A stretch of 64,000 bases of DNA from positions 32,001-96,000 of the IMG/VR virus record IMGVR_UViG_3300000228_000004; one strand, written 5' to 3'. Of this stretch, positions 5,122-59,834 are shown piece after piece. Both the position numbers and the translations under genes were made by a program. The number at the start of each line of letters is the position of its first letter. Positions within the stretch are counted from its first letter, which is position 1. Source of the stretch: a virus. The notes beneath the pieces were generated by a model. The model was not told the DNA's origin. It saw nothing but the letters and a program-made list of their open reading frames with translations, and made no database searches.

Positions 5122-5123
5122 TT

Positions 5124-7616: not shown

Positions 7617-8629
7617 TCAGTCTTCTTAAATATGTTTAATACATTAGTAATGTTTACCATTGAGTCATCATCCAACTTAGTAGTCTTGAGAGCAATAATA
7701 TCTTCAATCATAGAGCTATATATCCTATCAACCGCTACTTTGTAATCGATTGCTTCCATTCCTTCTTCGTTTATTGATATTAGTGTCCCTATCCCTATTT
7801 TTTCTGCTTCAGTTCTAGTCATTTTTTGTTCCTTTAAATTTCTGGCTTATCATTGAGTAAATAATCAGATGATATAAATCTCAACCACATAATATTGAAT
7901 GGGTTATAAGTTTTAAACTCTTTAACATTAGAATTTCCCAATTTAGCCCACTTCTTAGCGTTTTCATTGTTCTTAAAGTAGTGACCTGACACTTTATAAT
8001 ATTTCATTTATTCTCCTCTGAACCATTTTGTCTAATTTTGATTTTGATAGTACAGAAATACTACGCATGGCTAAAAGTAATAAAATAATAATCACCGAAA
8101 ACCATGAAAAAATTGATACTAAGATTGCATCAGCAAAACCTATATTTACATCATCCATAAATCGATTCATTAGAAAAGATATGATGATTACAAGGATGGT
8201 ACCACTAAAATATATTGCAAAAAAACCCATTTGATATCCTTTTATTGTTTATATGATATATTACACCGCGAGTTAGTTTAAAGTAAGGTTAAATCGAGAA
8301 ACTTTATATTATTTCATTTTTTCTTTCCTTTAATTTTAAGAATTTTTTCACAACAACTATCACAAATACCATACTGTGAAGTTCTACCACCGACAACCTC
8401 ACCACTGAAATCTTCAAACTCTTCATTATATGAAAACTTTCCTGGAAGTTCACTAACTTCATTTTTGTAAATATCACAAAATAGTATGCGTTTTCAGGTA
8501 TAACTATGATCATTCTAATCCTTTAAAATCCATTCACATGCCTTAAAAATGGCTTCTTGTTCAGTATCAGCATCAACAATTTCAAGAGAAGATTCTCCAG
8601 AAGAAATGAATTCACTATCGTCACTATGA

Positions 8630-8672
8630 GTGAACCACCTCGTCATTTATAGCGAGGGTTTACGAAACTGAT
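8630..8672 (-). repeat. 43-bp hairpin repeat resembling an IS200/IS605 right end (copy 1)
   Basis: Minus strand ATCAGTTTCGTAAACCCTCGCTATAAATGACGAGGTGGTTCAC; 36/43 identical to 58676-58718. Confidence 0.5.
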
Positions 8673-9214
8673 ACTAAGTAATTTTCTATAAAAGAGCGTA
8701 TTTCATTTTCGCCATCAAAATTATTAGTGAATTCATGATCATATAGACCATCTTTTTCGATGTTTCTCACGAAATCATCGAAACCATTTTCACGGTGTAT
8801 TGGTGTTTTTGTTTTTATTAATACGAAAGTGAAACCATTTTCCTTACACCAATCATATTCGTTCTGTGTCCTTACATCAGAAATGACAATACTATCCACA
8901 TTTAAAAGTAATAGTTCTTCTTGTAACATTCTCACAAACAACCCGTCTTCAGAATTCCTCAGAGAATTTAAACTCAGCCAAATTTCCCTTGGAGTTTTAG
9001 AGATAAGTTCCCCTGTCTTCGGTACTACTATATTCAATGGTTTTTCTTTTTCTTCAGGTGGGTAGTCCTTTTTCATCCAAGGGTAGATCTTAACTGCTAA
9101 TTTTTTTAATTGGTCACTGAAACTAATTCTGTTAAAACCATATTTTGTTACCATGGTTTTTACTACATAGTCTTTCCCAACACCGCTCACCCCCAATATT
9201 GCTATCTTATTCAT
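8660..9214 (-). CDS. Deoxynucleoside monophosphate kinase (T4 gp1-like)
   Basis: ILGVSGVGKD, SFSDQLK, TPREIW, VISDVR..NE. Confidence 0.8.
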   Translation of the reverse strand: MNKIAILGVSGVGKDYVVKTMVTKYGFNRISFSDQLKKLAVKIYPWMKKDYPPEEKEKPLNIVVPKTGELISKTPREIWLSLNSLRNSEDGLFVRMLQEELLLLNVDSIVISDVRTQNEYDWCKENGFTFVLIKTKTPIHRENGFDDFVRNIEKDGLYDHEFTNNFDGENEIRSFIENYLVSVS

Positions 9215-9749
9215 AATCTCGTACCGCCTTTAATATTTCTAAAATTTCACTCACTGCGTTTTCACCAATCTTAACTATATGGAATGGTTGATTATTTTTT
9301 ATTAACATATCTTTTATCCTTTCATCTAGCTCTTCTGACTCTGATAGAGTTTGTCTTCTTCCGTATGTTTGGTATGGGTGCTCTTTGGTATCTCTCTGTA
9401 AGAATATATTCAGGTGGTCATACGAATTCCAAATACCTAAAATAAGAGCTTCGAATTCTTTTTCTGGGAGATGTTTACTTTCTTGTAGGTAAACAGAACC
9501 CAGTAAAAATGGTCCATCATTAACTGTATAGTCAACTTGCTCTTCAAGTTTGAACCAATGGTGATGTTGTTTAGCCAATATCATCAATTGATCTTTTAAT
9601 TTATAGAAATCCTTACTGTATACAAGCCCTTTTGCGTATTCAGTAACGAACTCAACCTCGTACCCAAGCTTTTTCATTGAATGGAAAACCCCTGCGGCAG
9701 TCGTTGATTTTCCGGAAGACGGACCTCCGAATAGGTTGATATTCAACAT
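9207..9749 (-). CDS. P-loop kinase, NadR/AAA_28-like
   Basis: INLFGGPSSGKST, EFVTEYAK, YQTYGRRQ. Confidence 0.7.
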   Translation of the reverse strand: MLNINLFGGPSSGKSTTAAGVFHSMKKLGYEVEFVTEYAKGLVYSKDFYKLKDQLMILAKQHHHWFKLEEQVDYTVNDGPFLLGSVYLQESKHLPEKEFEALILGIWNSYDHLNIFLQRDTKEHPYQTYGRRQTLSESEELDERIKDMLIKNNQPFHIVKIGENAVSEILEILKAVRDYE

Positions 9750-9928
9750 TTACCATCCTCTAAAATTTCATAATTTAGTGTTATTTCGTTTCCTCGACAA
9801 ACGGGACAGGCGTAATATTCGTTTTCACCAAACGCGCCATACCCTTAATTTTACCATTTCCAGAACATTCAGTGCATAGTATTACGACACCATCATTTAG
9901 TAAATCTTCCAATTTCACTTTTTTATTT

Positions 9929-10735
9929 TCAATCATAGTACCACCCTTTTTTTACCAACATTTCTTTCGCCTCTTCAGTCGTTAATTCAATTGCTTCACC
10001 TTGCATAAATGGGGTATCTATTTTGATAAGAACTTCTTTCGAAAGTAGGCTACCTTTTTTGAAATACAGTGGTTTACTTTCGAAGCACCTGAACCCAATA
10101 ATTGTCCTTTTATTCGGGAGATCATTCGGAACCCCGTGTAAAAACTTCGTGTTATCAAAAATAATAGTATCACCAGGAGCTAAGTTTAGCTCAAATACTT
10201 CTCCAGCATGATTCATGAGACATAAACCTTTACCGCCATTTTCATTTTCAAGGACAACCACCATAACCAACCGTGGGATGAGCCCTTCCCTTATTTCAAT
10301 CTTATCTTTCCCCCATTCACCGTCAAACACTTCGGCATCAAAATGATATGGTATAGAATTACTATAATGGGATCCTTCTTTGTAATATTGGTAGTTGAAA
10401 AGAGACTTACTGTTTCCAGAAACAACTTCACCTATAAAACCGCCTAATATATCATTATATAATGAAAACAGCCCACCGAGAAGACCGTCTATTTTCAGAA
10501 ATGGTGCAGTATCTGGTTCACCCAAAGAAACCATTACTGCGCCACCGACCCTTCCTTCAGTTTCTTCCCTTTTTCTATATAATTTGCGCTCGACCAAATA
10601 ATCACTATACCCTATATCTATATTTGGTATAATATCATCAGTTAATTTTTTAGTATCCAACTCAGACAGAATGTCATAAATGACACAAAACCCATTCAAC
10701 TTCAGATCTGAAATATAATCTTCTATGTATTCCAT
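9929..10735 (-). CDS. 2OG-Fe(II) dioxygenase-fold protein
   Basis: HxD (YHFDAE), GGxL, PGDxIIFDN...LHGV, KRTIIGFR. Confidence 0.75.
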   Translation of the reverse strand: MEYIEDYISDLKLNGFCVIYDILSELDTKKLTDDIIPNIDIGYSDYLVERKLYRKREETEGRVGGAVMVSLGEPDTAPFLKIDGLLGGLFSLYNDILGGFIGEVVSGNSKSLFNYQYYKEGSHYSNSIPYHFDAEVFDGEWGKDKIEIREGLIPRLVMVVVLENENGGKGLCLMNHAGEVFELNLAPGDTIIFDNTKFLHGVPNDLPNKRTIIGFRCFESKPLYFKKGSLLSKEVLIKIDTPFMQGEAIELTTEEAKEMLVKKGWYYD

Positions 10736-10946
10736 TAATTATCCCTGTATTCTGAGAATAATATTGTTATTTCTTCTTTTGACAATCTTTTTGGACCTGC
10801 CAATGAGAAATGATATACAAACTCATTCCCGAGAAAAGTGGTCATGCCGTATAAGTTATTCTCTACTATTTGGACTTCTAGTGGTATGTTTATTTCTTCT
10901 GGGGTGGAAATAAATACTTCATTTCCTATTGTTAATTCAAACGAAA

Positions 10947-12041
10947 TCATCTTTCTACCCTTACAAACTCAAATTTTCTGAAAAATGAATTCTCTAAACT
11001 ATGGTACAATTCATCAGAACATTTGATTTTGACCGTGTCTGTGGAAAGTGAGAATTGTTCTTCATATTTTTTATGTAAAATATATGTAAGCACTAAATTG
11101 GAATATAAATATAAAAGATTATCTGTTGTTGGAACATTAAACCGCTCAAATAAATCATCCAAGCCCGTGTATTCTTCACCACTGAAATCAGTATCGGTCG
11201 TGATTATTGAGGATAAATGAGAAACCAACCCCTGAAAAAATTCATGAATTTTTTCAATTTCAGGAAATTCTATTTCATCATCTGCTAGTAATCCATTTTC
11301 TTGTGAAATTTTATTCGTGATAACATCATACCCCTGTTTCCCTGAAAAATCATAAAGGTGCATATTAGTCACATGGTGATTATAAACGCCTAAAGTAACT
11401 TCTGGGTCAATTTCAGATTTGATATATTGAAGAATCATTTCTTGTAAAAATGTCCATTCAAAAATATTTATACTACCTAGCCCCCAAACAATATCACCGC
11501 TCCTAGATTTGACATTCATATTCAATTTCTTATCAGGTGTAACGAAAAAATCTAATACCATGTTACACGGTCTGTCTTTTCCTTTTTCTATACCATCTTC
11601 TTGAAGTGCTGAAGTAGAGTCAATAGACGGGTCTGAAATAACCATCACGGCTCTTCTCGTGTAAATTCCTTCGTTCCTGAATTGCTGAAGGACGTCATTT
11701 ATCTGCTCATTACTGGAAATCCTTTCTGGATAACCCCCTCTCCACGAAATACCGTCATCAGAATAATCACTTGCTCTGGGCAGGAAAAAACTTAGGTACG
11801 GGTCTATTTTATTAGAACCAGCAAATACCCAAAATGTTTCTGCTATCGTAGCAAATATATTGTTTTTTCTACCAATGAGAGAAAGATGCCTTGCTTTAGG
11901 ATTTTCTAGAGTGATGAACGCATTATATACTGAAAGAATTCCACCATTCCTAGATTTGGTTCTATGCCCCTCGCTGATAAGTTTATCCAATGATTTGTAA
12001 ACAACTTCATTGATAGTTTTCCCTTTGATTTGGTTCAACAT
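10947..12041 (-). CDS. Thymidylate synthase homologue, likely dUMP hydroxymethylase
   Basis: SRNG, YSDDG..WRGGY..R, TRRAV, catalytic DRPCN, RSGDIVWG..SIN.FEW.FLQE (Asn at the dU-specificity position), NMHLY. Confidence 0.85.
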   Translation of the reverse strand: MLNQIKGKTINEVVYKSLDKLISEGHRTKSRNGGILSVYNAFITLENPKARHLSLIGRKNNIFATIAETFWVFAGSNKIDPYLSFFLPRASDYSDDGISWRGGYPERISSNEQINDVLQQFRNEGIYTRRAVMVISDPSIDSTSALQEDGIEKGKDRPCNMVLDFFVTPDKKLNMNVKSRSGDIVWGLGSINIFEWTFLQEMILQYIKSEIDPEVTLGVYNHHVTNMHLYDFSGKQGYDVITNKISQENGLLADDEIEFPEIEKIHEFFQGLVSHLSSIITTDTDFSGEEYTGLDDLFERFNVPTTDNLLYLYSNLVLTYILHKKYEEQFSLSTDTVKIKCSDELYHSLENSFFRKFEFVRVER

Positions 12042-12277
12042 TCGTGTAACTCCTTTTTTGAATTTATATGGGCGGATGGTATTTTAATAAAATATTGGGT
12101 ATACCCGTATTTTTCAATGCACTCACCGCAAATTTTGATATCTCTATTGAACTCTATTGAAATAAAACCTGAAAAATGAAATATTCCATTTTCTTCTTTT
12201 GTAGAACCACACACATCACATTTAATGCACAAACCGACCCCTTGTTTAAAATATATTGACTTATCGGGATTGAATTA

Positions 12278-12907
12278 TCAATCCCTTTTTCTTGGTTTGG
12301 TTGATAACCTTGTTTTACCGAGCTTCGTTTTCTTGTTACTGAAAATTAGGTTAGTTAATCTATCCGAATATTTCTTATACTGAAAACAATCTGGGATGTA
12401 AATAACCTCAAGTTTATCTGGGAAATGTATGGCACTTATTGATACTGTCGTATTTTCACGAATTCTATCTTCGCCATCAGGAAAAACTTTCATGAGACTT
12501 TCTTCAAGAACAGGTAGTATGTGCTTGATATCAAATGCTACAGCATAAAGTAAAACGCCTTCTCTTGAGTAACCAGCTGAAATATATAACCCATTTTCAT
12601 TCTTATACTTCTGGAAAGATTTCCAAGTCAAATTATTGAAAATTCCTCTCCCCGAAACTGGTTTATTCTCCCCAATAGTTTCATTTTTTACTTCTAGGAA
12701 CAAGTTGCCTCTCTTACCATCCCAACCATGTTTTTCTGATATGTGGTGTCCGTGTATAAGATCTACTGTTATTCTTTCCCTCACAGAGTCTCCGCCACCA
12801 GTCATAAGGTTTTCACAAGAAAACCTCGAAAATGCGTTCGCTTCTTCTAAGTTGTCAAAATCAGATAATACCCCAGTCTTAGCATAATTCATTATATTAT
12901 GGTACAA
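12278..12907 (-). CDS. Putative PD-(D/E)xK nuclease
   Basis: RE...HGWDG...LEVK motif arrangement. Confidence 0.5.
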   Translation of the reverse strand: MYHNIMNYAKTGVLSDFDNLEEANAFSRFSCENLMTGGGDSVRERITVDLIHGHHISEKHGWDGKRGNLFLEVKNETIGENKPVSGRGIFNNLTWKSFQKYKNENGLYISAGYSREGVLLYAVAFDIKHILPVLEESLMKVFPDGEDRIRENTTVSISAIHFPDKLEVIYIPDCFQYKKYSDRLTNLIFSNKKTKLGKTRLSTKPRKRD

Positions 12908-13120
12908 AAGTCACCCTTTAGTTGAAATTCTAGAGGTAGACCATTCTTTGGTTGAGCGACGAGAAAGATAGTAACCCATCCCGAATGCTGACATACGGTA
13001 TTCTTTCAGCATTTGTAACGCTTCTTTTCTTGTTTCAAATTGGTCAACTGTTTCAACCACCCCATTTGTTTTAGTGTTGATGTATAGCATTTTTCACCTT
13101 TCTTATCATATAATATCTTA

Positions 13121-13144
13121 TATTATACCGTAATTTGGTTTAAA
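13121..13144 (-). promoter_or_regulatory. RpoD-type promoter
   Basis: TTTAAACCAAATTACGGTATAATA on the minus strand. Confidence 0.65.
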
Positions 13145-13733
13145 ATAAACTTAACCGATCACCATTTATTTGAGCCGCAGTTGATTGATAATAGTGAGTA
13201 GTACCAGTTCCGTTATCACTAGAAACCCTCACATATTCATTGAAATTTTTAGCGTTCATAATCCATTTGAATTTTACCAAATAATCACCACTGGGGGTAT
13301 TTTCATAGTACCCAACCACGATATAATCAACAAGTCTATTGTATTTTAAAAAAGTGGTTAAATTCGCCCTTGTCAGTTGGTGTTCATTTGGGTTATTTGC
13401 CCCAGAAATATTGAAATTGAACCATCTATCGTTTTTATTGGAAGGCTTCACTTCTATAAAAGAACCGTCGACCTCAACATCATAAGCAAAAGAGAGAGGA
13501 TTCAACGGGTCATGCTTTTGGGTATTAAGTTTACCGCCAAGAAGTGATGCTAAAGCAACTTCTAGTATTACACCACTTTCGCAGTTTTTCATCAGAACTT
13601 CATCCGTTCTACCGTGTGTTTGACCATTTTCCTTTATCTCTTGAAACAAATTAAGTGATAATTCTGAAATATCTTCTTTAGTGACCACGATTGGTTTTCG
13701 AAGCTTAATTAAAATATTGTTGGTTAAAACCAT
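13140..13733 (-). CDS. denB: DenB (endonuclease IV)-like nuclease
   Basis: EV...C..GV..E..LA..L.G..N....D..NP..FAYDV....IEVK....D.RW....NL pattern parallels T4 DenB as recalled. Confidence 0.65.
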   Translation of the reverse strand: MVLTNNILIKLRKPIVVTKEDISELSLNLFQEIKENGQTHGRTDEVLMKNCESGVILEVALASLLGGKLNTQKHDPLNPLSFAYDVEVDGSFIEVKPSNKNDRWFNFNISGANNPNEHQLTRANLTTFLKYNRLVDYIVVGYYENTPSGDYLVKFKWIMNAKNFNEYVRVSSDNGTGTTHYYQSTAAQINGDRLSLF

Positions 13734-14410
13734 TCTGTATCCTTTGATGGTGCTGTTTCTTTAATTGAATTTACAATTTCCCAATTTTCGTTAAAATACA
13801 TTTTTACTAACGCGTCTCGACTTTCCTTGAAATCTATATGTTTTACTAGATTATTTTCAGAAGCACCCATATTATTTTTGTAATATATTAACAGGGTTTT
13901 AAAAAGTTCATTGTCCGACCACCCAGATGAATTTTCAGCCCAATCAAGACCTCTGGTTTTTCCAGTTCTCTCGTTCGTTCTTTGCAAAAACTCAGTTATA
14001 TCATCATAATAAGAAGCAATCAAGTGTACTTCATCACACCCATTGGCTTCCCAACTCGGAATATCGCCTCGCTTAGAACGGTTGTTAAAATAACCCTCCA
14101 TAAAAATAGTGGTTATTTCTGGGTATTGTTTTGCTAACGCTGGTATCTTTTCTAACCGTTGTTCCCAATTTGAAAACATTGCTGTATCAAGACTGACCCA
14201 TTGTGTACCACCTTTGGCAAATCTACCCAATACGAACCAACCATTTTCGAATAGGAATCCTATATCTTCTTGCTTAGGTTCTTTACCCTTTCTTTCAATT
14301 TTACCGCGTATCACTGAATACTCGAATTTTGAAATCAAGTAGTTCACTAAGAAATATGTTCTTGTTGATTTCCCGGAACCATTTGACCCCATATAATTGA
14401 TTAGTCTCAC
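13724..14410 (-). CDS. P-loop kinase, 5-hmdU DNA kinase-type
   Basis: MGSNGSGKSTR, VLGRF...SLD, FMEG, R..ERTG; within the modification cluster; ends TEWF. Confidence 0.7.
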   Translation of the reverse strand: MRLINYMGSNGSGKSTRTYFLVNYLISKFEYSVIRGKIERKGKEPKQEDIGFLFENGWFVLGRFAKGGTQWVSLDTAMFSNWEQRLEKIPALAKQYPEITTIFMEGYFNNRSKRGDIPSWEANGCDEVHLIASYYDDITEFLQRTNERTGKTRGLDWAENSSGWSDNELFKTLLIYYKNNMGASENNLVKHIDFKESRDALVKMYFNENWEIVNSIKETAPSKDTEWF

Positions 14411-14443
14411 TATTTATCCTTTACTTTCAAATATTATACCATA

Positions 14444-16234
14444 TCATTCTTTTGTTTGACTTAAACCAATTTGTGAAAATTCACCTTTCACGAACCTAGA
14501 AAAAACTTCTTTTATCGTTCCAGATGTATCTAATTCTAATAATTGAACCACATTTCCACCGAGATCGTTGTGTTCTTGATAAACTTTCTTCGCAGTTGAA
14601 AGTCTCTCGTATTTTTTTTCTACTGCTTTAAGTTGGTTCATTTCTTCATCAGATTTACCAGTCCTGTTTTTAATTCTTACCAGTGCTTCTTCGTAGGAAG
14701 TACTTAAAAAAAGTACCACTGGCTTCCTTAGTGTCATATTCTTTAGTGTATCAAAATATGCAGCTATTGTATCTGATGGTATTGAACCCTCTAGATACAC
14801 GCTAAAATCACTGAACTCTTTCCTGTTTAATACTTCTATGGCATACATGATTTCTTTCTTCTTGAGCGTGTCACATCCCCCAAAATTAGATTCCACTCCA
14901 TAGTTACCCAAAGAGATGAAGTTATATTTCGGAAAAACCGTGAAAATGGTTTTCTTAAAATAATTTGAATAAATTTTATACGAAAGAGAATCAGTTGCAA
15001 GCATTTGCTTGGGGATAGTTGATTTTCCGGCACCGTTCCCCCCCTTGACATACATGAAAGTTGGTTCACTTTTTTTAATTATTTCAAAAAAACTTTCATC
15101 AAATTTTTCGACTGGTGTATCAAACCAGTCATCATATAAATTAGGCGCGTAAACTTCTTTCTTAACGATGTCGAGTTCGATGTCCCCAACGAAGTTGAAT
15201 GTTTCTTCGTACTCGTAAATTTCTACTTCAGTGGGCATCTTTCTATTCAAATTTTCGGCGGAAGTTTTAAGGTCTGGTACTGACCCAACTACCCAAAACA
15301 GGGTTTTATCGTTTATCAGTTCTGGGTGATTTTTTAATAGGTATTCGTAAACTTTCGCTTCATATCTATAATGAAATGTTATGTCATCTATTTGAATACC
15401 CTTAATGGTTTTAGAATACGGTTGTTTCGTGTCGTGCCAAATGAATTCAAACATCGATGTGTCAGCACCCATTAAAGAAAGCCTTTCAAACATATAGTCA
15501 CGCTTATCGACCCCCACATTTATGAGGTGTATTCTTTTCAATGCCTTTGGCGTATCTTTATCATCACTTAACCCCAATAATATAGAAGTTGCTGAATTCG
15601 CTGAGCCGAATGGTATGATTAGATCAGTGATAAAGGTTGGTATATTCTTTACCTGATGAGCGCCAACTTTATGGAAATCAGTTACCATCTTAGCTGAATT
15701 CACAGAAAGCCTATGATCCAGAGTGATATCTCTTTCAATGGTAAATGATTTCGGGAACTTTTCCATAACTTCCCCGACCCTCTTTTGTATATTCACATTA
15801 AACCCAGAGCCACTTGATATTTCATACTTAGTACCAAACATAGTCGCGAATAAAGGAAGTTGGTGTTTATTTATAGCGTCGAAACTTGTCCCACCAGCCA
15901 CTTGAATACACCGAAGCCCGTAATGCTCTGCCATTGCGGCAGCCATAATGGTCTGTGGTGATGAGTTGACATTCGTTGCGTGTATTACTGTATCAGCACC
16001 CGTTGGTCTATTTTCAAATAAGTGAAGGAGTTGTCTACACTTAGACCCGTTCGCGGTGTTTATCCCGAAAAGAGAGAATTTATCTTCTCTCTTATAGTAC
16101 ATACCATCTGATTTCTGTTCCACTGGGGTTAGTTCCCACATATAATCTTTCCACCGTTTACCTTCCGGAAGAGGAAAGGGTACAACGGAATCTCGTAAAT
16201 CTTCATTCAGTGTAATTCTTTCTGTCATAACCAC
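14444..16234 (-). CDS. PLP-dependent enzyme (ACC-deaminase/fold II-like) fused to a C-terminal P-loop kinase
   Basis: LTPVE..YKRED...NGSKCRQ, SPQ, IPFGSANS, YEAK, FWVVG; then KGGNGAGKST, LGNY...GGCDT, LEG, RIKNRTG. Confidence 0.8.
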   Translation of the reverse strand: MVMTERITLNEDLRDSVVPFPLPEGKRWKDYMWELTPVEQKSDGMYYKREDKFSLFGINTANGSKCRQLLHLFENRPTGADTVIHATNVNSSPQTIMAAAMAEHYGLRCIQVAGGTSFDAINKHQLPLFATMFGTKYEISSGSGFNVNIQKRVGEVMEKFPKSFTIERDITLDHRLSVNSAKMVTDFHKVGAHQVKNIPTFITDLIIPFGSANSATSILLGLSDDKDTPKALKRIHLINVGVDKRDYMFERLSLMGADTSMFEFIWHDTKQPYSKTIKGIQIDDITFHYRYEAKVYEYLLKNHPELINDKTLFWVVGSVPDLKTSAENLNRKMPTEVEIYEYEETFNFVGDIELDIVKKEVYAPNLYDDWFDTPVEKFDESFFEIIKKSEPTFMYVKGGNGAGKSTIPKQMLATDSLSYKIYSNYFKKTIFTVFPKYNFISLGNYGVESNFGGCDTLKKKEIMYAIEVLNRKEFSDFSVYLEGSIPSDTIAAYFDTLKNMTLRKPVVLFLSTSYEEALVRIKNRTGKSDEEMNQLKAVEKKYERLSTAKKVYQEHNDLGGNVVQLLELDTSGTIKEVFSRFVKGEFSQIGLSQTKE

Positions 16235-17460
16235 TCACTTATTTGTTTTTCTATGGTTGGGGTGATTTTATTATTGGTTTTCTTCCCATACCATTCTTTT
16301 TCTTTTTCTTCGTGATTAATGAAGAAATTATTTTTAAAAACTGGGTTATAATTTTCCATCATAATAACTTCCCCTGTTTTCTTATACCAATTCTGTTTGA
16401 CCTTAACCAATCCTGGGTCATTCGGGTTATCTTCCATCCTAAGTTCAGAAGGAAGATATTTTCTTCTTGCTTCCCAAAAATCTTTGAAATCTATATCAGA
16501 CCCATCAATTTCTTTCCAATCCCTTGTTTCTGCTTTTTTTATTCTATCATGGAACATATCATTATAAACATTAGGATATCTTCTATTTTCCCTGTGCCAA
16601 CTCTTATAGCAACAAAGCGTGGACTCAAGGGTGAAGTAGTTCACATCTTCAAAGAACGGTTCTTGTGAAAATCTTTCCTTGGCATCTGATAATAGTACCG
16701 CGCCCTCTTTTTCTAGCCAAATCATAACTTCTTTGTTATGCCCGTTGACTATTTCTGTTGGTAAATCTTGGTTATCTTTTCTAACATCAAGATCATCCCT
16801 ACCACTCACTACACAAAGACCGTTCCGGTGTGATTTTGAACCAGATTTATCATAAATGAAGAGACTACCGCAATCTATGTTTAATCCCATAATTTTAAGA
16901 TACTCAAGGTATGAAAATGTTGAAAGCCTTCCATACATAAAAAAATCGTTAAAAACGGTATCCCAAACTTTTTCAAAATTTCCATAAACATCACCAGTAT
17001 CACAAAGGTCTGAAAAATACCCTTCTTGCGTTTTACCACCCAATAATTCTAGGTAATTTTGGTACATTTCAATGAAGTGACCCTTTTGGTATCTTCTGTC
17101 GATATCATAGTCGAGGTTTTTCCAATATTCTCTATGCCATTTTTCCATGTCTTCTATAGAAGAAGACCTTAAAGAAGGGAAATGTTTAAATAACACCCAG
17201 GAAGTGAGTGGGTTTTGTGTTGCTCCGTTTATAAACGCGAACCACAATCTTGTCTCAAAATCCCAATCATGTTTCTTAGCCAAGAAAGGCATCACATAAT
17301 ATACTGCCCCTGGATGAGATTTATACTTTAAATGGAACCCATAAAAATTAAGGAAAACTTCTCTTCTATATTCAGGCAACCGAAAATCAACGCCCTCTGC
17401 TAATTCCCTTTCTTCGACCCCATTTATGTGACAAAATCTACCCAATACCATTGATATCAC
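16225..17460 (-). CDS. Amino acid:DNA transferase (aGPT-Pplase2-like, DNA glycosylase fold)
   Basis: HPGAVY, DIDRRYQK, YGRLSTFSYLE, GSKSHRNGL, YFTLESTLCCYK, RRYPNVYNDM; ends ISEWL. Confidence 0.85.
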   Translation of the reverse strand: MISMVLGRFCHINGVEERELAEGVDFRLPEYRREVFLNFYGFHLKYKSHPGAVYYVMPFLAKKHDWDFETRLWFAFINGATQNPLTSWVLFKHFPSLRSSSIEDMEKWHREYWKNLDYDIDRRYQKGHFIEMYQNYLELLGGKTQEGYFSDLCDTGDVYGNFEKVWDTVFNDFFMYGRLSTFSYLEYLKIMGLNIDCGSLFIYDKSGSKSHRNGLCVVSGRDDLDVRKDNQDLPTEIVNGHNKEVMIWLEKEGAVLLSDAKERFSQEPFFEDVNYFTLESTLCCYKSWHRENRRYPNVYNDMFHDRIKKAETRDWKEIDGSDIDFKDFWEARRKYLPSELRMEDNPNDPGLVKVKQNWYKKTGEVIMMENYNPVFKNNFFINHEEKEKEWYGKKTNNKITPTIEKQISEWL

Positions 17461-17983
17461 CTTTTATGAATTCATAAATTTCCACCCATTCAACATAAGG
17501 GAATTCGTCACTGGGCGAGTTAAGGAAACTTTTAATTTGAAAAACTTTAGAATGAGGGGAAACATCCCTACAATATTTCTTATAGTCATCAACGAAATAA
17601 TCACATCTCACGAATTTCTTATCAGAAGTGGACACAAACCCCTTAGAGTATGGGAAATTTCTTCTTATGAAATGTCGTTTCGATTCTTCATGCTCTGGGA
17701 TACAACTTGATACGAATATTATACCAATACCGAGTTCGTGGATTTTTTGTAAGTATATTTTAGCATGTTCAAATGCTTCTAATTTATCATATAACTTAGG
17801 GTCTCTCCAAAATTTCATTGGGTCATTATGATTTTTCATCAAGGTTTCTAGGTCATTATTCTCAGATGAAAGTGACCCTAAATCATCCCCAGTCAAATCT
17901 TTGTACCAATTTACCCAAGGGGTAACTGAGTCAACCACTGTTAAATCAACATCGACCGCGATTATTTTATTCATTTCAGACAT
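17438..17983 (-). CDS. HAD-family 5'(3')-deoxyribonucleotidase
   Basis: DVDLTVVD motif I, FVSS, K, FVDD. Confidence 0.75.
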   Translation of the reverse strand: MSEMNKIIAVDVDLTVVDSVTPWVNWYKDLTGDDLGSLSSENNDLETLMKNHNDPMKFWRDPKLYDKLEAFEHAKIYLQKIHELGIGIIFVSSCIPEHEESKRHFIRRNFPYSKGFVSTSDKKFVRCDYFVDDYKKYCRDVSPHSKVFQIKSFLNSPSDEFPYVEWVEIYEFIKGDINGIG

Positions 17984-18106
17984 TTTTCACCTTTTTGTTC
18001 ATTTTACTAAAGTAACCTTTCAGAAACCTTAAATCTTTTTAATAAACCACGCTTAGTATGTTTCATAGATTTAAGGTCAGTATAAGTTTCAGTTCCGACT
18101 TTAATT

Positions 18107-18748
18107 TTATTTGAATAATTTGGTGTTATCTTCGTTACCATTTTCATCAAATTTTGCATATGCATCAGCTGATTCAGTATAACCGCCGTCAACTCTTTCG
18201 TGGTTCAGTTTATTCTTCCCCATATATAATTGATACATATATTCAGGTGTCATATTCGCGTACCACCCAAGTGAATTTATCAGGTACACGAACGCGGTCA
18301 ATGATTCTTCCCTTTGGTCTAAAAGAGAAGATAATGAAAATGAATTGATATCTAACATCAATCCACTAGATAAATTTTCCCCATTTTCATCAAATTCCGC
18401 TTTAGAGAACTCCTCGTGGCAAGAAATATAATCACCTAACAATTGTTCTATATTAGACCCGTAATTCATAATCAATACACTGATCGCAAAGTGGATAATA
18501 TCAACTGCTTCTACTTGCATGTTATTAAAGTCATTCTCTAGGAAAATTTTCCACCACTTCCAACCAGTTCCTGTATCACCAGTCCTAGGGGAACTTTCCA
18601 ATAGTTCCCCTAACTCAGCCATCATTGCTGAAATAAAGTGTGATTTTGGGATAATCTCAGCCCAATCTTCCCCTGAATACTTCTCATTTAATAATACCTG
18701 TGCGCTCAAAATTTCACTAAATTCATTTACTTTCATTATGTTAAACAT
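18107..18748 (-). CDS. Dimeric all-alpha dUTPase (possibly dUTP/dTTPase)
   Basis: ELGELLES, WKWWK, VEAVDIIHF, Y..KN.LNHER..GGY. Confidence 0.8.
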   Translation of the reverse strand: MFNIMKVNEFSEILSAQVLLNEKYSGEDWAEIIPKSHFISAMMAELGELLESSPRTGDTGTGWKWWKIFLENDFNNMQVEAVDIIHFAISVLIMNYGSNIEQLLGDYISCHEEFSKAEFDENGENLSSGLMLDINSFSLSSLLDQREESLTAFVYLINSLGWYANMTPEYMYQLYMGKNKLNHERVDGGYTESADAYAKFDENGNEDNTKLFK

Positions 18749-18759
18749 TATTTTTCCTT

Positions 18760-19189
18760 TTATTTATGATTTGAAGTACTCAGTACTTCACCGTCCTTAT
18801 CAACCCATTTTCTCAGTTTGAAATCCAGTATATACATAGTTTTATCTGAATTTTCTTTGGCATCAATCGTGTGTTTTGTGCCCTTAGATTCCCCATCCCA
18901 GATAACCAAGAACATACCCGAATTATCCCAGATGGTTTTGTTTCTTATAAAACCAGCACTTTCCATATTTTTCCCAATCAGCTGGGTAAATTTCAGTGGG
19001 AATATCATTTACTTCAGTATAATATTCAGCCATAGAATCTATCCCTCTTGCGCCACCTGATACTATAGTGTCAAATTGTGTTTTTAAACGCATAGAGTCT
19101 AAAATTTTTACCAAAAGGTCAAAATCTTCAAACCCACGGGAACCAATGACCGCTAATCTTATCACGGGGGGGAGAACCACTTTTTTCAA
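18760..19189 (-). CDS. DUF2493/YspA SLOG-family protein, split by a frameshift near 18960
   Basis: IGSRGF, IVSGGARGIDS, ADWEKYGK in one frame, continued by SAGFIRN...WDGESKGTKH in the other. Confidence 0.7.
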
Positions 19190-19206
19190 TCACTGTCTCA
19201 TCCTTA

Positions 19207-20388
19207 TCAATGCGTTTTCAACCACTCATCGGTTTGTTTTATTTCAGTATCTGAATCATTTGGATTTCGTTTATACCTATTTCTTGGTCTTCCAGTTTTC
19301 TGTTTCACAGAGACTATTTTTTGTAATTCACAGAAACTGTTTTCACACATCATAACATTTAATTTTCGATCTTCCTCTGGTAAATGGTCAAAAAGTTCAC
19401 TATAATCAATGTGAAGTCCGCGTTTTTCCCATTCAGTCTCTATATTATCCCTGACCCAGAATAATGCTTCTTCGTGGGTCATACCGTCCCTGTCTTCCAT
19501 TAAAAGGTCTATCCCTCTATCACATCCTGGCCCAGACACTACGAATTCATTTTCACTGAACTTGAATTCTGGTATATATGTTAAGTCAACAAATACTTGG
19601 TACGCCAAAAACCCAGCCAATCCTGGGATTTCTCTCAAAATATTGAATACTTCCTCTTGAGTATTCGCCCCTTGAACTCGAGTGGATATATCCGTGTTTT
19701 TAACCCATTGTATCATGTGTATCATCCTAGTTGGCATATTTTTTTCTACACCAACTATTTCATACCCTTCATTTTCTTTAATATACCCCTTTGCTTCTTT
19801 CCAGGTCATTTCTTCTGTGTCAATATGACCTTCTTTTCTTACCTCAACCACCATACCCGAATTCGTGCATTCGTACTCTAATGTTTTAGGGAAAGCCCAA
19901 CTTGCTTTGAGCCCACCAGTGTTAAATGCTGGTGTGAAAAATGCATATTTCGGATTTTCTTTAGCATATTCGATAAATATTTCACGGAACGCGTCTATGT
20001 CTAAATTGTCAAAATCTTCTATGTAACCACCAAATAATTCTGATGTACTAGACTTGTTATATGTTCTGAAGAAGATAGAATTGAGGATCTTTACTTCTAG
20101 TGTTAGATTCGGGTTTGTGCTAATATTCTTAATCAACCATTTAGACTCTCTATCGAGTTCACGCCTTACATTAGTGAATCTATAATTCTTGAACACTTCA
20201 TCGTCTGTCCATTCTTGTTGTGGTAATTTTTCAATTTCTTTTCTTTTGTGTATATTGTGTCTTTCAGACATGAACAAATTATGATATCTTAGCACCTCTT
20301 CATTTAAAATCGGTTTCGCGTTTTTTATCTTTTCGATATCAACACCACAATATCTAATATCGGCTTCCTTTGTTTTCATTAAAACCAT
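19207..20388 (-). CDS. aGPT-Pplase1 / 5-hmdU DNA kinase helical-domain protein
   Basis: ERH.I...K...WTDD.VF..YRFTNVRRELDR.S.W, GFLAYQ..VDL.Y, SGPG...G, CENSFCE; ends DEWLKTH. Confidence 0.85.
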   Translation of the reverse strand: MVLMKTKEADIRYCGVDIEKIKNAKPILNEEVLRYHNLFMSERHNIHKRKEIEKLPQQEWTDDEVFKNYRFTNVRRELDRESKWLIKNISTNPNLTLEVKILNSIFFRTYNKSSTSELFGGYIEDFDNLDIDAFREIFIEYAKENPKYAFFTPAFNTGGLKASWAFPKTLEYECTNSGMVVEVRKEGHIDTEEMTWKEAKGYIKENEGYEIVGVEKNMPTRMIHMIQWVKNTDISTRVQGANTQEEVFNILREIPGLAGFLAYQVFVDLTYIPEFKFSENEFVVSGPGCDRGIDLLMEDRDGMTHEEALFWVRDNIETEWEKRGLHIDYSELFDHLPEEDRKLNVMMCENSFCELQKIVSVKQKTGRPRNRYKRNPNDSDTEIKQTDEWLKTH

Positions 20389-21548
20389 TCCTCAAGTTTA
20401 AAATTTTGCTTCATATCATAACCAACTGCTTCTAACATAAGGTTAAGTGGTGATATGAAATAATCTTCCCACATTTTACCCCTATCAACATATTTTTCAA
20501 GCCCAGAGTCTGTTATAAAGTCAGAATCTAGAAACCCGATTATATCATCACCTAAAATGTTGGGTTTCTTTAAAATACAATATTTTATTTTATCACTGTC
20601 TGTTATTTTAGGGTATTTGGATAACCCAGTTCTTTCTAAAAAAATATTGTAATTCATTGCCGCCCTTACATTCATTGGCGCAGTTAAAATTTTTCCATTT
20701 TTCTTAGTGGTGAATTTACCTATACCCCCCTTATAATCCAAAGACCCGATACCAGAAACCCTGCATATGTCACCCAATGGTGCTTTGTAGAATTTCTCTT
20801 CTATCTCAGATATAGAAGCAATCGTTTCTTTTGCATCGTTATCTAGAATTACATTCACCATATCTTTGAGATATTTCCTACAAAAGGGCGGAGTAGAAGA
20901 TCGTACTATCTCCAACCCAGTGACCGCCAATTTAGGGTCATCGACAAGTATAGACCCTTCGTCCCAAACGGCACGCAAAGCATATTTTTTCTTTGCAACA
21001 AACATCCCTTTATCGGCAATTTTTTCAAGTTTTGCCCCGATGGGCTTGGCACTAAATGCGTTGAAATTGTCTGAGAAAGAATCTATGTATTCTTGGACCC
21101 ATACATCGAGGTATTTATGATCAAAATTAACAAGTTTATCAAGTATTTCGTGATTATTAGCGGTGTCGAATTTTTTTACTAATTCATTAAGAGTAAAATA
21201 CACAGAGTCGGTGTCACCATAAACTACAAAGTCAATATTGGTATTAAGAACACTTCGTAACTTCCCATTTACATAATTCGCCAATCCTTGTATAAATATC
21301 CTACCGTTCCCAGTGATACTTGCAGCAACATCTCGATTGAATAGTAAAAAGTGTATATTTGCTAGAGCACCATATAATGAGTTCATCGAAATCTTTAGAG
21401 CCATCTGATATACATCGAAATAAGCAATTCTAGTGTCTATATATTTCATATCTGCCGTTAAACCACTAACATCCAAATCGTTGATTTTATCAATCGTCAT
21501 TGAACCGTCTTCTATACCATCGTAAATTTCTTCTATTGTCATGTTCAC
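20379..21548 (-). CDS. 43: Family B DNA polymerase, C-terminal fragment (fingers/palm/thumb)
   Basis: QMALKISMNSLYGA, YGDTDS, KKKYA, GLEIVRSSTP; ends KLEEWF. Confidence 0.93.
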   Translation of the reverse strand: MNMTIEEIYDGIEDGSMTIDKINDLDVSGLTADMKYIDTRIAYFDVYQMALKISMNSLYGALANIHFLLFNRDVAASITGNGRIFIQGLANYVNGKLRSVLNTNIDFVVYGDTDSVYFTLNELVKKFDTANNHEILDKLVNFDHKYLDVWVQEYIDSFSDNFNAFSAKPIGAKLEKIADKGMFVAKKKYALRAVWDEGSILVDDPKLAVTGLEIVRSSTPPFCRKYLKDMVNVILDNDAKETIASISEIEEKFYKAPLGDICRVSGIGSLDYKGGIGKFTTKKNGKILTAPMNVRAAMNYNIFLERTGLSKYPKITDSDKIKYCILKKPNILGDDIIGFLDSDFITDSGLEKYVDRGKMWEDYFISPLNLMLEAVGYDMKQNFKLEEWF

Positions 21549-58797: not shown

Positions 58798-59277
58798 TTA
58801 ATTACCAAAATCAGCCTTGATATGCTCCACAGTTTCATTTTCAAAACATATAGTGAAATCAACCATTGGTAAATTAGAAATATCAATATCTCCAGCATTA
58901 TAAGATAATGTAAAATGTGGTTTGTATTCACTGAAGTCACTCACGAACCCATATTTTTCAACAAGTTCTGAATTCCTGTGAAAAAGTTCTTGTGAATGTA
59001 TTTCAACAACAAGTGCTTCACCATCTTTTCCGAATTTTGAATAATTAGTCGGGATTGCTTCTATTGAATATTCCTTAGACTCTATTTCACCGAAAAAAGG
59101 TTTTTTAGAGTATATAAGGGTACAGTGTTGATCATAATTGAATTCAATGCCGTTAAGGTACTTGTTTGTAAATTCTTCAAGTTTGTCTATTGAAGTTTGT
59201 TTCATTTTTAATGCGATATATACGCCTCGCGTATATAGTAAATCAGAAGAAAGTTTTTCGATAATTTCTCTAATCAT
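58798..59277 (-). CDS. acb1: 2H phosphodiesterase, T4 gp57B/Acb1 anti-CBASS-like
   Basis: G.YIA.K, HCTLIYS, LVV...S..L, DF.EYKPHFTLSY. Confidence 0.8.
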   Translation of the reverse strand: MIREIIEKLSSDLLYTRGVYIALKMKQTSIDKLEEFTNKYLNGIEFNYDQHCTLIYSKKPFFGEIESKEYSIEAIPTNYSKFGKDGEALVVEIHSQELFHRNSELVEKYGFVSDFSEYKPHFTLSYNAGDIDISNLPMVDFTICFENETVEHIKADFGN

Positions 59278-59834
59278 AGTTGCCCCTCATATATTTGTAA
59301 TACTTCAACCCCATTATCAGCTAGGTAAACTAATGCGGAAGAGTCACCGTATTCTTTACAGAATACAACTCTCTTCACTCCACTCGTAATAATAGCATTA
59401 CAACATTCTATGCAAGGGGAGTGGGTGATGTACATTTCACACCCATCTATTCGGATACCATTTTTGGCGGAAAAATATATAGCATTCCGTTCAGCGTGAA
59501 GAACATTAGACTTTGTTCTTGTTTTCTTTATTACATGTACTACCCCAGATGCGCCACATGCCGTACATCGGTTTTTTGAAATATCTTCGCTATAAAGAAG
59601 TTTATTCTGGACTGAACAACCGCAAACAGAACATACATTTTCGAACCAATCTTCTTCACAACAGTTTTCCATTCCAGGGGGAGTACCATTATACCCAGTA
59701 GCTAAGGGTCTCCCGTCTTTTGCGATAACCGCGCCGACTTTCAACCTTTCGCAATTAGACATCTTTGAAAAAACGAAAGCTGTTTCTAATAGGACTTTAT
59801 CAAATTTCTTTATCATTTCGTGTTGATTACTCAT
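59274..59834 (-). CDS. cd: dCMP deaminase with a Zn-ribbon insertion
   Basis: SNC.RLKVGAV, GYNGTP, HAE.NAI, THSPC..C; extra CxxC...CxxC. Confidence 0.9.
   Translation of the reverse strand: MSNQHEMIKKFDKVLLETAFVFSKMSNCERLKVGAVIAKDGRPLATGYNGTPPGMENCCEEDWFENVCSVCGCSVQNKLLYSEDISKNRCTACGASGVVHVIKKTRTKSNVLHAERNAIYFSAKNGIRIDGCEMYITHSPCIECCNAIITSGVKRVVFCKEYGDSSALVYLADNGVEVLQIYEGQL

What the first reader, a model, noticed from the sequence alone, without database searches (positions are those of the whole stretch)
8660..20388. Thymidine hypermodification cluster in a probable Campylobacterota T4-like phage
Seen: dNMP kinase, NadR-like kinase, 2OG-Fe(II) oxygenase, TS homologue with the dU-type Asn, P-loop kinases, PLP enzyme, aGPT-Pplase2 amino acid:DNA transferase, HAD nucleotidase, dUTPase and aGPT-Pplase1, right behind the polymerase. 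dCMP deaminase is at 59 kb. Established: ViI, M6, PhiW-14 and SP10 make 5-hmdU, pyrophosphorylate it on DNA, transfer an amino acid or amine, and in ViI/M6 decarboxylate it with a PLP enzyme. Characterised Campylobacter phages instead replace guanine. Inference: T is replaced by 5-hmdU and partly converted to an amino-acid-derived base. With no radical-SAM gene in the window, a serine/aminoethoxy-type route is the simplest reading.
Basis: partly seen in the sequence, partly recalled or inferred. Interest (0 to 1): 0.85.

Follow-up and report, generated by a model that had tools for sequence, protein, structure and literature searches.

The report
Phage thymine hypermodification gene cluster
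An uncultured T4-like phage from biofilm and soil metagenomes carries, next to its DNA polymerase gene, the full known enzyme set for replacing thymine in its DNA with an amino-acid-derived base, so it is a well-supported but fairly ordinary new example of a known system, with one unexplained extra enzyme.

Summary

- **Confirmed genes:** a dUMP-hydroxymethylase-type TS homologue (Asn at the base-specifying site), dNMP-kinase-like and AAA_28 kinases, an NT5C nucleotidase, a dimeric-type dUTPase, and HMUDK_hel/aGPT-Pplase1 (206 bits). Also an amino acid:DNA transferase (PF18724, 70 bits), two 5-hmdU DNA kinase paralogues, a ViI gp226-like PLP domain and a new 2OG/Fe(II) dioxygenase.
- **Match to ViI:** all five ViI genes that rebuild 5-NeOmdU have counterparts here.
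- **Corrections:** the PLP enzyme is fused to the gp67-type kinase. The kinases add one phosphate, not pyrophosphate. Two nuclease genes, PvuII-like and DenB-like, sit inside the cluster.
- **Product:** the transferase groups with ViI's serine transferase, not with the glycine or diamine enzymes, at only 29% identity. A serine/aminoethoxy product is therefore the leading but unproven guess.
- **Dioxygenase:** it lies next to the hydroxymethylase and the AAA_28 kinase in eight related loci, and its role is unexplained.
- **Host:** T4-like is supported; Campylobacterota is not shown.

The scan has noted such clusters in at least 92 other genomes. This is a new member of a known kind, of moderate interest.

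The parts
8660..9214 (-). dNMP-kinase-like P-loop protein (184 aa), candidate 5-hmdUMP kinase
   Evidence: Weak Pfam DNMK/AAA_17 hits. 29.6% identical to ViI dnk Vi01_059c, E 7e-14. Homologous to the N-domain of Acinetobacter phage 15599 gp18.
9207..9749 (-). AAA_28 (NadR-like) P-loop kinase (180 aa), probable nucleotide kinase
   Evidence: Pfam AAA_28, E 1.6e-12. Phage homologues are often annotated thymidylate kinase. Adjacent to the dioxygenase in 8 related loci.
9929..10735 (-). 2OG/Fe(II) dioxygenase of an unannotated family (268 aa); substrate unknown
   Evidence: Invariant H131, D133, H200, R210 and R216 in 16 homologues. AF2 pLDDT 92.9. Fold match to prolyl hydroxylases: Foldseek E 3e-9 and Z 14.6. 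No Tet_JBP match. No homologue in 50,697 GenBank phage records.
10735..10950 (-). Conserved 71-aa ORF between the hydroxymethylase and the dioxygenase
   Evidence: 35-37% identical homologues at the same position in L004, L005 and L058. No family hit.
10947..12041 (-). dUMP hydroxymethylase-type thymidylate synthase homologue (364 aa)
   Evidence: phrog_3676, E 1.2e-80. Best hits are in T-hypermodifying phages. Asn at the TS-N177 position, where MilA and T4 gp42 have Asp. PCN motif as in SPO1 gp29 and ViI, not the PCH of T4 td. It is the only TS homologue in the record, and there is no ThyX.
12278..12907 (-). PvuII-like PD-(D/E)XK endonuclease (209 aa)
   Evidence: Invariant D63, E72 and K74. 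AF2 pLDDT 86. PvuII matches at Z 10.4 and 9.9, then NhoI and DpnI.
13140..13733 (-). DenB-like endonuclease (197 aa)
   Evidence: phrog_1360 'DenB-like DNA endonuclease IV', E 5e-14. Conserved in L004 and L006.
13724..14410 (-). gp243/HMUD2-type 5-hmdU DNA kinase paralogue (228 aa), ends in ...TEWF
   Evidence: Pfam HMUD2 24.3 bits; its L004 homologue scores 29.7 bits. 23.9% identical over 176 aa to ViI gp243, pairwise E 5.6e-5. Tail seen.
14444..16234 (-). Fusion protein (596 aa): fold-type II PLP domain (ViI gp226-like decarboxylase) plus gp67/HMUD1-type 5-hmdU DNA kinase
   Evidence: HMUDK_HMUD1, E 6.5e-25, at residues 391-552. 32.8% identical to ViI gp226 (E 2e-48) and 33% to ViI gp67 (E 1e-21). 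K65 aligns with gp226 K92.
16225..17460 (-). Amino acid:DNA transferase (AADT/aGPT-Pplase2, 411 aa), ends in ...SEWL
   Evidence: PF18724, 70.4 bits. 28.8% identical to ViI gp247 and 40% to Coopervirus gene 3. Falls in the clade with ViI's Ser transferase, 100/100 support. Donor-pocket residues are C284/R294.
17438..17983 (-). NT5C-family 5'-deoxynucleotidase, candidate dTMPase
   Evidence: Pfam NT5C, 33 bits. 36% identical to ViI Vi01_194, which lies next to the ViI polymerase.
18107..18748 (-). Dimeric-type dUTPase (dUTPase_2), candidate dTTPase/dUTPase
   Evidence: Pfam E 1.2e-17. 28.9% identical to the C-domain of 15599 gp18, which was shown to hydrolyse dTTP and dUTP but not 5hmdUTP.
18760..19189 (-). 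SLOG/DprA-like gene split by a frameshift
   Evidence: Two frames align to the intact 138-aa L004 homologue. The same sequence appears in independent runs.
19207..20388 (-). HMUDK_hel / aGPT-Pplase1 (393 aa), counterpart of ViI gp160
   Evidence: Pfam E 9.8e-61. 40% identical to ViI 87534-88655.
20379..21548 (-). C-terminal half of a split family-B DNA polymerase, ends in ...EEWF
   Evidence: Pfam DNA_pol_B. The N-terminal half lies at 25136-26401.
59274..59834 (-). dCMP deaminase, supplier of dUMP
   Evidence: Pfam dCMP_cyt_deam_1, E 1e-22.

Best explanation
This is a complete thymidine-hypermodification system of the ViI type in an uncultured T4-like phage.

Before replication (inferred from homology):
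- dCMP deaminase and the dUTPase_2 enzyme supply dUMP. The dUTPase_2 enzyme probably also destroys dTTP.
- The NT5C nucleotidase removes dTMP.
- The TS homologue makes 5-hmdUMP.
- The dNMP-kinase-like and/or AAA_28 kinase starts its conversion to 5-hmdUTP.
- The phage polymerase then puts 5-hmdU in place of T.

After replication (inferred):
- Two 5-hmdU DNA kinase paralogues, together with the HMUDK_hel protein, phosphorylate the 5-hydroxymethyl group.
- The amino acid:DNA transferase displaces the phosphate with an amino acid that keeps a free alpha-amine. Serine linked through its oxygen is the most likely donor.
- The PLP domain fused to one kinase removes the carboxylate, leaving an amine-bearing side chain. 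5-aminoethoxymethyl-dU is the leading candidate.

Other parts of the cluster:
- The two nuclease genes probably attack unmodified T-containing host DNA.
- The conserved 2OG dioxygenase belongs to the nucleotide module, but its step is unknown.

My odds are about 0.85 for the pathway class, about 0.35 for 5-NeOmdU as the exact product, and about 0.25 for the nuclease role.
For: - Family matches above cut-off: HMUDK_hel 206 bits and HMUDK_HMUD1 88 bits, ADDT 70.4 bits.
- One-to-one counterparts of the experimentally characterised ViI gp67, gp226, gp243 and gp247, plus gp160. Protein accessions were checked against Table 1 of PMC8989533.
- The TS homologue has the uracil-type Asn and the PCN signature of SPO1 gp29. 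Its Pfam score of 39.6 bits is close to the known hydroxymethylases (44-87 bits) and far from T4 td (215+83 bits).
- It is the only TS homologue in the record, and there is no ThyX.
- The dUTPase_2 and dNMP-kinase-like proteins match the two domains of 15599 gp18, a proven dTTPase/dUTPase that spares 5hmdUTP.
- PLP Lys65 aligns with gp226 K92.
- The AADT clusters with ViI's Ser transferase at 100/100 support, apart from the Gly and diamine transferases.
- It has Arg where the diamine enzymes have Asp and the glycine enzymes have Tyr.
- No radical SAM or Tet_JBP is found in the 110-kb record.
- The module is conserved in IMG/VR and metagenome relatives.
- The identical sequence occurs in runs from 2012, 2014 and 2019.
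Against: - No chemistry is available: no virion DNA and no raw-signal data.
- The AADT is only 28.8% identical to ViI gp247. Its closest relatives are uncharacterised actinophage enzymes (40-42%) that work with T-dioxygenases and have no PLP partner.
- One donor-pocket position differs from ViI (C284 versus W288).
- The HMUD2 match is just under Pfam's cut-off.
- The record is about 71% complete, so missing tailoring genes cannot be excluded.
- The conserved dioxygenase has no place in the ViI scheme.
Confidence: 0.75

Rival explanations
1. The scaffold is the same, but the donor is different. The transferase attaches another amino acid that keeps a free alpha-amine, such as threonine, homoserine or cysteine, or lysine, ornithine or diaminobutyrate linked through the side-chain amine. 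The PLP domain then decarboxylates it, giving a base that is not 5-NeOmdU and may be undescribed.
For: - The AADT is only 28.8% identical to ViI gp247 and forms its own subclade with actinophage enzymes of unknown product.
- The pocket residue is Cys where ViI has Trp.
- Two pocket residues are enough to switch donor in this family (PMC13458397).
- Many clusters in the family similarity network of that paper remain uncharacterised.
Against: - The only characterised member of its superclade uses serine.
- The PLP domain is closest to ViI-type gp226 homologues.
- The pocket Arg is shared with ViI.
Confidence: 0.35
2. The 2OG dioxygenase, not the TS homologue, makes the 5-hydroxymethyl group. It would oxidise thymine in DNA or in nucleotides, and the TS homologue would be an ordinary thymidylate synthase.
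For: - T-dioxygenase-driven pathways exist in phages (PMC13229309).
- The AADT's nearest relatives sit beside such dioxygenases.
- The dioxygenase is always next to the TS homologue.
Against: - No Tet_JBP match was found, and the nearest folds are prolyl and amino-acid hydroxylases.
- The TS homologue groups with hydroxymethylases and is far from canonical TS.
- dTTP- and dTMP-removing homologues are present.
- No ParB partner was seen.
Confidence: 0.07
3. The cassette acts on cytosine. The TS homologue would be a dCMP hydroxymethylase, as in the kinase-less hmC cassettes of other T4-like phages.
For: - The best solved-structure match by sequence is MilA, a CMP hydroxymethylase.
- This scan has reported hmC-linked aGPT-Pplase-like cassettes in marine T4-like phages.
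Against: - The base-specifying residue is Asn here, whereas MilA and T4 gp42 have Asp.
- Two 5-hmdU DNA kinase paralogues are present.
- A dCMP deaminase is encoded.
Confidence: 0.03

Closest known systems
Salmonella phage ViI (Kuttervirus) 5-NeOmdU pathway: gp67 and gp243 (5-hmdU DNA kinases), gp160 (aGPT-Pplase1), gp247 (serine:DNA transferase), gp226 (PLP decarboxylase); Lee et al. 2018 and 2021
   Same: - All five proteins have counterparts here, at 24-40% identity.
- The dUMP hydroxymethylase, dnk and NT5C homologues are shared.
- In both phages the transferase, a kinase and NT5C lie just downstream of the DNA polymerase gene.
- Neither has a radical-SAM gene.
   Different: - Here the genes form one 12-kb array, whereas in ViI they sit in at least four places in the genome.
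- The PLP enzyme and the gp67-type kinase are fused.
- The transferase is only 29% identical and has Cys for Trp in the pocket.
- Extra genes are present: a 2OG dioxygenase, an AAA_28 kinase, two nucleases and a dUTPase_2-type enzyme.
- Only 22 of 174 proteins of the record have a ViI hit.
Metavirome thymidine-hypermodification clusters with 5-HMUDK fusions (Lee et al. 2021, Fig. 2, sequences 14-16)
   Same: A PLP-dependent enzyme fused to a 5-HMUDK in uncultured phage contigs was already described.
   Different: I could not check whether this contig, or its dioxygenase, is among the published ones.
Acinetobacter phage SH-Ab 15599 alpha-dapT pathway (PMC13458397)
   Same: The dUMP hydroxymethylase is 37% identical. 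The two domains of gp18, the dTTPase/dUTPase, match two separate genes here.
   Different: - Its transferase uses a diamine and has a G/D pocket, and it falls in the other AADT clade.
- It has no PLP step.
Coopervirus mycobacteriophage cassette (ParB-like protein, 'hydroxylase', AADT, kinase)
   Same: It holds the closest cultured-phage homologue of the transferase, at 40-42% identity.
   Different: - Its cassette carries an annotated 'hydroxylase' and a ParB-like gene beside the transferase, and shows no TS homologue there, which fits the ParB-dependent T-dioxygenase route of PMC13229309.
- It has no PLP enzyme or Pplase1.
- Its product is not reported in the papers I read.

Membership tests
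Phage thymidine hypermodification system via 5-hmdU (Lee et al. 2018/2021) | dUMP hydroxymethylase (TS homologue specific for uracil) | tested here: met
   Asn at the base-specifying site. It groups with the hydroxymethylases of T-hypermodifying phages. The activity itself was not assayed.
Phage thymidine hypermodification system via 5-hmdU (Lee et al. 2018/2021) | 5-hmdU DNA kinase (P-loop, HMUDK families) | tested here: met
   PF18748 at 88.2 bits. 33% identical to ViI gp67. A second paralogue is of the HMUD2/gp243 type.
Phage thymidine hypermodification system via 5-hmdU (Lee et al. 2018/2021) | Amino acid:DNA transferase (PF18724) | tested here: met
   70.4 bits against a cut-off of 26.2.
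Phage thymidine hypermodification system via 5-hmdU (Lee et al. 2018/2021) | A hypermodified thymidine in virion DNA | not testable with these tools
   Only assembled contigs of short-read runs are available.
ViI-type 5-NeOmdU pathway | Serine-specific transferase | tested here: inconclusive
   Same 100/100-supported clade as gp247, with the pocket Arg shared. It is only 28.8% identical and has Cys for Trp.
ViI-type 5-NeOmdU pathway | gp226-type PLP decarboxylase with the Schiff-base lysine | tested here: met
   32.8% identical, E 2e-48. K65 aligns with K92.
M6-type 5-NedU pathway | Radical-SAM glycinyl-thymine isomerase and a glycine-type transferase pocket (K/Y) | tested here: not met
   No PF04055 match in the 110-kb record, which is 71% complete. 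The pocket residues are C/R, not K/Y.
PhiW-14 / 15599 polyamine-thymine pathways | Diamine-type transferase pocket (G/D) | tested here: not met
   The pocket is C284/R294, and the enzyme is in the other AADT clade.
TET/JBP 5-methylpyrimidine dioxygenases (5mYOX) | Tet_JBP domain (PF12851) | tested here: inconclusive
   No PF12851 match at E <= 10 in the record. The fold search puts prolyl and amino-acid hydroxylases first, but DSBH folds are all close in score.
Canonical thymidylate synthase (ThyA) | Strong full-length match to PF00303 and the PCH active-site motif | tested here: not met
   39.6 bits against 215+83 for T4 td. The motif is PCN, and there is a long C-terminal extension as in the hydroxymethylases.
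T4-like phages | T4-type replication and recombination genes | tested here: met
   UvsW_N, UvsY, DnaB-like helicase, SbcC/D-type pair and PolB. PolB is 33-36% identical to the polymerases of large Vibrio myoviruses and T4-like cyanophages.

The most novel reading that the evidence does not exclude
The conserved trio of hydroxymethylase, 2OG dioxygenase and AAA_28 kinase is a new pathway step. One reading is that the dioxygenase hydroxylates thymine at the nucleotide or nucleoside level (dTMP or thymidine to the 5-hydroxymethyl form). Thymine nucleotides released from host DNA by the cluster's nucleases would then be recycled into 5-hmdUTP. The other reading is that it oxidises the appended side chain, so that the final base is one not yet described.
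Probability: 0.2. Interest if true: 0.75.

Novelty: new member of a known kind. Interest (0 to 1): 0.42.

Why it matters
- **A compact test set.** The cluster puts a complete thymidine-hypermodification pathway, both pre- and post-replicative, into one 12-kb array in a deep-branching T4-like phage. That makes a compact gene set for heterologous reconstitution.
- **A natural experiment on donor choice.** Related phages keep the nucleotide module but swap the tailoring cassette: PLP here, and GATase, amidoligase or GNAT-kinase fusions elsewhere.
- **New leads.** One is a dioxygenase family absent from the 50,697 GenBank phage records searched yet fixed beside the hydroxymethylase. Another is the pair of nucleases that may discriminate T-DNA from modified DNA. 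The last is the polymerase-like C-terminal tails on the DNA-modifying enzymes.

None of this overturns current understanding of these pathways.

Tried and rejected
- **Megablast** of the cluster against GenBank phages found no match.
- **Single-protein locus search** with the fusion protein found nothing. Alignment-based searches were needed.
- **hmmscan** gave no family for the transferase, although the family search on the genome did. phmmer of the transferase against PDB sequences found no relative, so the pocket residues rest on my own MAFFT alignment.
- **NCBIfam and phmmer-PDB** on the unknown proteins gave only noise.
- **TS-family tree:** the deep nodes were unresolved, so it supports only 'far from canonical TS and from gp42'.
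- **Host tests:**
  - The GroEL pattern scan found one 50%-identical gene on a Ca. Sulfurimonas ponti MAG contig that has no other phage genes.
  - A DNA search of window 1-20000 in 401 genomes of that class gave only short imperfect matches of 25-60 nt (best E 5e-6). There was no spacer-like hit.
- **RNA:** no RNA holder was listed for the stretch.
- **Reference ORFs:** my crude ORF caller mis-called the high-GC YuA and PaMx11 loci, so that comparison was dropped.
- **Not done:** I ran no complex-prediction job.

Full report
**Source and context**

The window is bases 32001-96000 of a 110,523-bp linear IMG/VR virus record that CheckV rates about 71% complete. GC content is about 34%, and nearly all genes lie on the minus strand.

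The backbone is T4-like. It carries a UvsW-type helicase, UvsY, a DnaB/gp41-type helicase, an SbcC/SbcD-type pair, ribonucleotide reductase and a family-B polymerase. The N-terminal half of that polymerase is 33-36% identical to the polymerases of large Vibrio myoviruses and T4-like cyanophages.

Megablast finds no close relative among 50,697 GenBank phage records. The same DNA occurs in soil (2012) and biofilm (2014, 2019) metagenome runs from several studies, with essentially no differences. Cave metagenomes hold small shares that I did not lay.

**Checking the observation**

The genes form a tight array with overlapping or abutting stops and starts.

Strong family matches:
- HMUDK_hel/aGPT-Pplase1 at 19207-20388: 206 bits.
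- HMUDK_HMUD1 in the C-terminal part of the 596-aa protein at 14444-16234: 88 bits.
- ADDT (PF18724) at 16225-17460: 70.4 bits in the genome-level family search. hmmscan had listed nothing for this protein.
- dUTPase_2, NT5C and AAA_28.
- dCMP deaminase at 59274-59834.

Weaker matches, corroborated in other ways:
- The 228-aa kinase at 13724-14410 scores 24.3 bits against HMUD2, against a cut-off of 25. Its 48%-identical relative in L004 scores 29.7 bits, and it aligns with ViI gp243.
- The 184-aa dNMP-kinase-like protein is 29.6% identical to ViI dnk.
- The 268-aa '2OG oxygenase' has no Pfam hit. Sixteen homologues keep H131, D133, H200, R210 and R216. A confident model (pLDDT 92.9) matches prolyl and amino-acid hydroxylases of the 2OG/Fe(II) fold (Foldseek E 3e-9; Z 14.6, rmsd 3.5 Å over 183 residues).

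- The PLP enzyme is not a separate gene. It is residues 27-342 of the 596-aa protein, fused in front of the gp67-type kinase. Fusions of this kind were already reported from metaviromes (PMC8989533).
- The kinases of this family add one phosphate, not a pyrophosphate.
- Two nuclease-like genes sit inside the cluster.
  - The 209-aa protein has an invariant D...E-x-K motif. Its model (pLDDT 86) matches PvuII at Z 10.4 and 9.9, then NhoI and DpnI.
  - The 197-aa protein matches the PHROG family of DenB-like endonuclease IV.

**Mapping to the characterised ViI system**

I fetched the ViI genome and checked protein accessions against Table 1 of Lee et al. 2021.

| Window protein or domain | ViI counterpart | Identity | E-value |
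|---|---|---|---|
| Fused kinase domain | gp67 | 33% | 1e-21 |
| PLP domain | gp226 | 32.8% | 2e-48 |
| Transferase | gp247 | 28.8% | 3e-27 |
| HMUDK_hel protein | gene at 87534-88655 (gp160) | 40% | 3e-75 |
| 228-aa kinase | gp243 | 23.9% over 176 aa | 5.6e-5 (pairwise) |

All five proteins used to rebuild 5-NeOmdU ex vivo therefore have counterparts here. In ViI, the polymerase gene is followed by an NT5C homologue, gp243 and gp247, which echoes the arrangement in this window. Lys65 of the PLP domain aligns with gp226 K92, the proposed Schiff-base lysine.

**The pre-replicative half**

- *Base specificity.* The TS homologue has Asn where E. coli/T4 TS has the uracil-specifying Asn. The cytosine enzymes MilA and T4 gp42 have Asp there.
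- *Signatures shared with the other phages' TS homologues.* It has the PCN active-site motif found in SPO1 gp29 and in every other T-modifying phage I compared, rather than the PCH of T4 td. It also has the long C-terminal extension seen in ViI, PhiW-14, Cygsa01 and 15599.
- *Distance from canonical TS.* Its Pfam TS score of 39.6 bits sits beside the hydroxymethylases (44-87 bits) and far from T4 td (215+83 bits).
- *No alternative.* It is the only TS homologue in the record, and there is no ThyX.
- *dTTP removal.* The dUTPase_2 protein and the 184-aa kinase-like protein match the C- and N-terminal domains of 15599 gp18. That enzyme was shown to hydrolyse dTTP and dUTP but not 5hmdUTP.

With dCMP deaminase and NT5C, this is the classic set for swapping dTTP for 5-hmdUTP. 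Each step here is inferred from homology.

**Which base is made?**

- *Clade.* A tree of transferases splits at 100/100 support. Glycine and diamine enzymes (YuA, PaMx11, PhiW-14, 15599) fall on one side. ViI's serine transferase, the window enzyme and its relatives fall on the other.
- *Pocket residues.* Two pocket positions were shown to set donor choice (residue numbering verified). Diamine enzymes have G/D, glycine enzymes K/Y, ViI W/R, and the window enzyme C284/R294. An Arg at the second position fits a carboxylate-bearing donor.
- *PLP requirement.* A PLP decarboxylase needs a free primary amine, and no radical-SAM isomerase is present. The donor should therefore be linked through its side chain, as serine is in ViI.
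- *Caveats.* Identity to gp247 is only 29%. The nearest relatives (40-42%) are uncharacterised actinophage enzymes that sit beside a ParB-like gene, an annotated 'hydroxylase' and a kinase, the kind of cluster PMC13229309 ties to ParB-dependent T-dioxygenases.

I put 5-NeOmdU at about 0.35. A different, possibly new, decarboxylated adduct is about equally likely.

**The conserved extra: dioxygenase plus AAA_28 kinase**

Alignment-based searches recovered the dioxygenase in four IMG/VR loci and several metagenome contigs.

- *Adjacency.* Counting the window, eight loci keep the dioxygenase next to both the hydroxymethylase-type gene and the AAA_28 kinase: the window, L004 (which is the same contig as L057), L005, L006, L007, L058, L060 and L061. 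Dioxygenase identity in these loci falls as low as 32%, and gene order is rearranged in L007.
- *Independence from the tailoring cassette.* That cassette varies among these relatives: PLP in L006; GATase_6 plus a GNAT-HMUD2 fusion in L004; an amidoligase in L005; GATase_6 in L007. The dioxygenase therefore travels with the nucleotide module rather than with a particular side chain.
- *Limits.* Two more distant homologues, in contigs of higher GC, lack these neighbours. These phages are related to one another, so shared ancestry explains part of the pattern.
- *Distribution.* The family has no match in GenBank phages and no Tet_JBP signal. Homologues of the AAA_28 protein in jumbo phages are often annotated thymidylate kinase.

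The dioxygenase's substrate cannot be told from fold alone. A nucleotide-level thymine hydroxylase, or a tailoring oxidase, is the most novel reading left open.

**Host**

Evidence for Campylobacterota is thin.
- GC content is low, and the habitats are biofilm, soil and cave.
- One 50%-identical GroEL lies on a contig binned with Ca. Sulfurimonas ponti. That contig shares nothing else with the phage.
- A DNA search of 20 kb of the window against 401 genomes of that class gave only short imperfect matches.

**Verdict**

The cluster is real and is well explained as a ViI-like thymidine hypermodification system. That makes it a new member of a known kind. This scan alone has 97 notes, in at least 92 genomes, that carry the search words for such clusters, and published surveys list hundreds of contigs. 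Interest is moderate. It rests mainly on the unexplained dioxygenase, the in-cluster nucleases and the swappable tailoring cassettes among relatives.

Noticed in passing
window 13724-14410, 16225-17460, 20379-21548, 36060-36308; record 27068-28123 (before the window): Five proteins end exactly in [DE]-W-[FLV], against 0.15 expected by chance: the polymerase C-half, the HMUD2-type kinase, the transferase, an 82-aa protein and a 351-aa protein. HMUDK_hel has DEWL four residues from its end. Transferases of relatives end in ...LEWF, ...EEWV and ...DDWA. This may be a shared docking tail, such as a sliding-clamp-binding tail, but I did not test binding.
   Followed up: partly
window 18760-19189: A SLOG/DprA-like gene is split into two frames near 18,960-18,980, compared with an intact 138-aa homologue in L004. 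Independent runs from 2012, 2014 and 2019 carry the same sequence, so it is probably not an assembly error.
   Followed up: partly
window 20379-21548 and 25136-26401: The family-B DNA polymerase is encoded as two genes about 3.6 kb apart, with several small ORFs of no known family in between. I saw no intein signature at the split.
   Followed up: no
window 1114-2094: The UvsW-type helicase ORF runs into an intein splicing domain (Pfam Intein_splicing/Hint at residues 231-324) and ends there. This suggests a split or intein-interrupted gene.
   Followed up: no
L005:7659-9731: In a related phage, the hydroxymethylase-type TS homologue carries an intein with an HNH endonuclease (690 aa).
   Followed up: no
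L004:2899-8411, L005:3200-7594, L007:6258-9316: Related phages keep the nucleotide module but carry other tailoring sets. These include GATase_6, a 330-aa ADDT of a different subclade, a GNAT-HMUD2 kinase fusion, an Amidoligase_2 protein and unknown proteins of 366-385 aa.
   Followed up: partly
window 58798-59277: An Acb1 anti-CBASS homologue (Pfam E 5.8e-26) lies directly beside the dCMP deaminase gene.
   Followed up: no
window 48947-50554 and 51080-57264: The phage encodes a GroEL-type chaperonin (Cpn60, E 3e-66) and a cluster of eight tRNA genes: Leu, Met x2, Arg, His, Thr, Gln and Ser.
   Followed up: no
window 12035-12232 and 9781-9936: Two small Cys-rich ORFs lie inside the cluster, one of 65 aa with CxxC...CxxC and one of 51 aa with CxxC. 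They are possible zinc-ribbon proteins, and neither has a family match.
   Followed up: no
window 8600-21600: Contigs from runs dated 2012, 2014 and 2019, in different studies, cover the cluster with zero or one difference. The phage population appears very stable, or the samples come from one site.
   Followed up: partly
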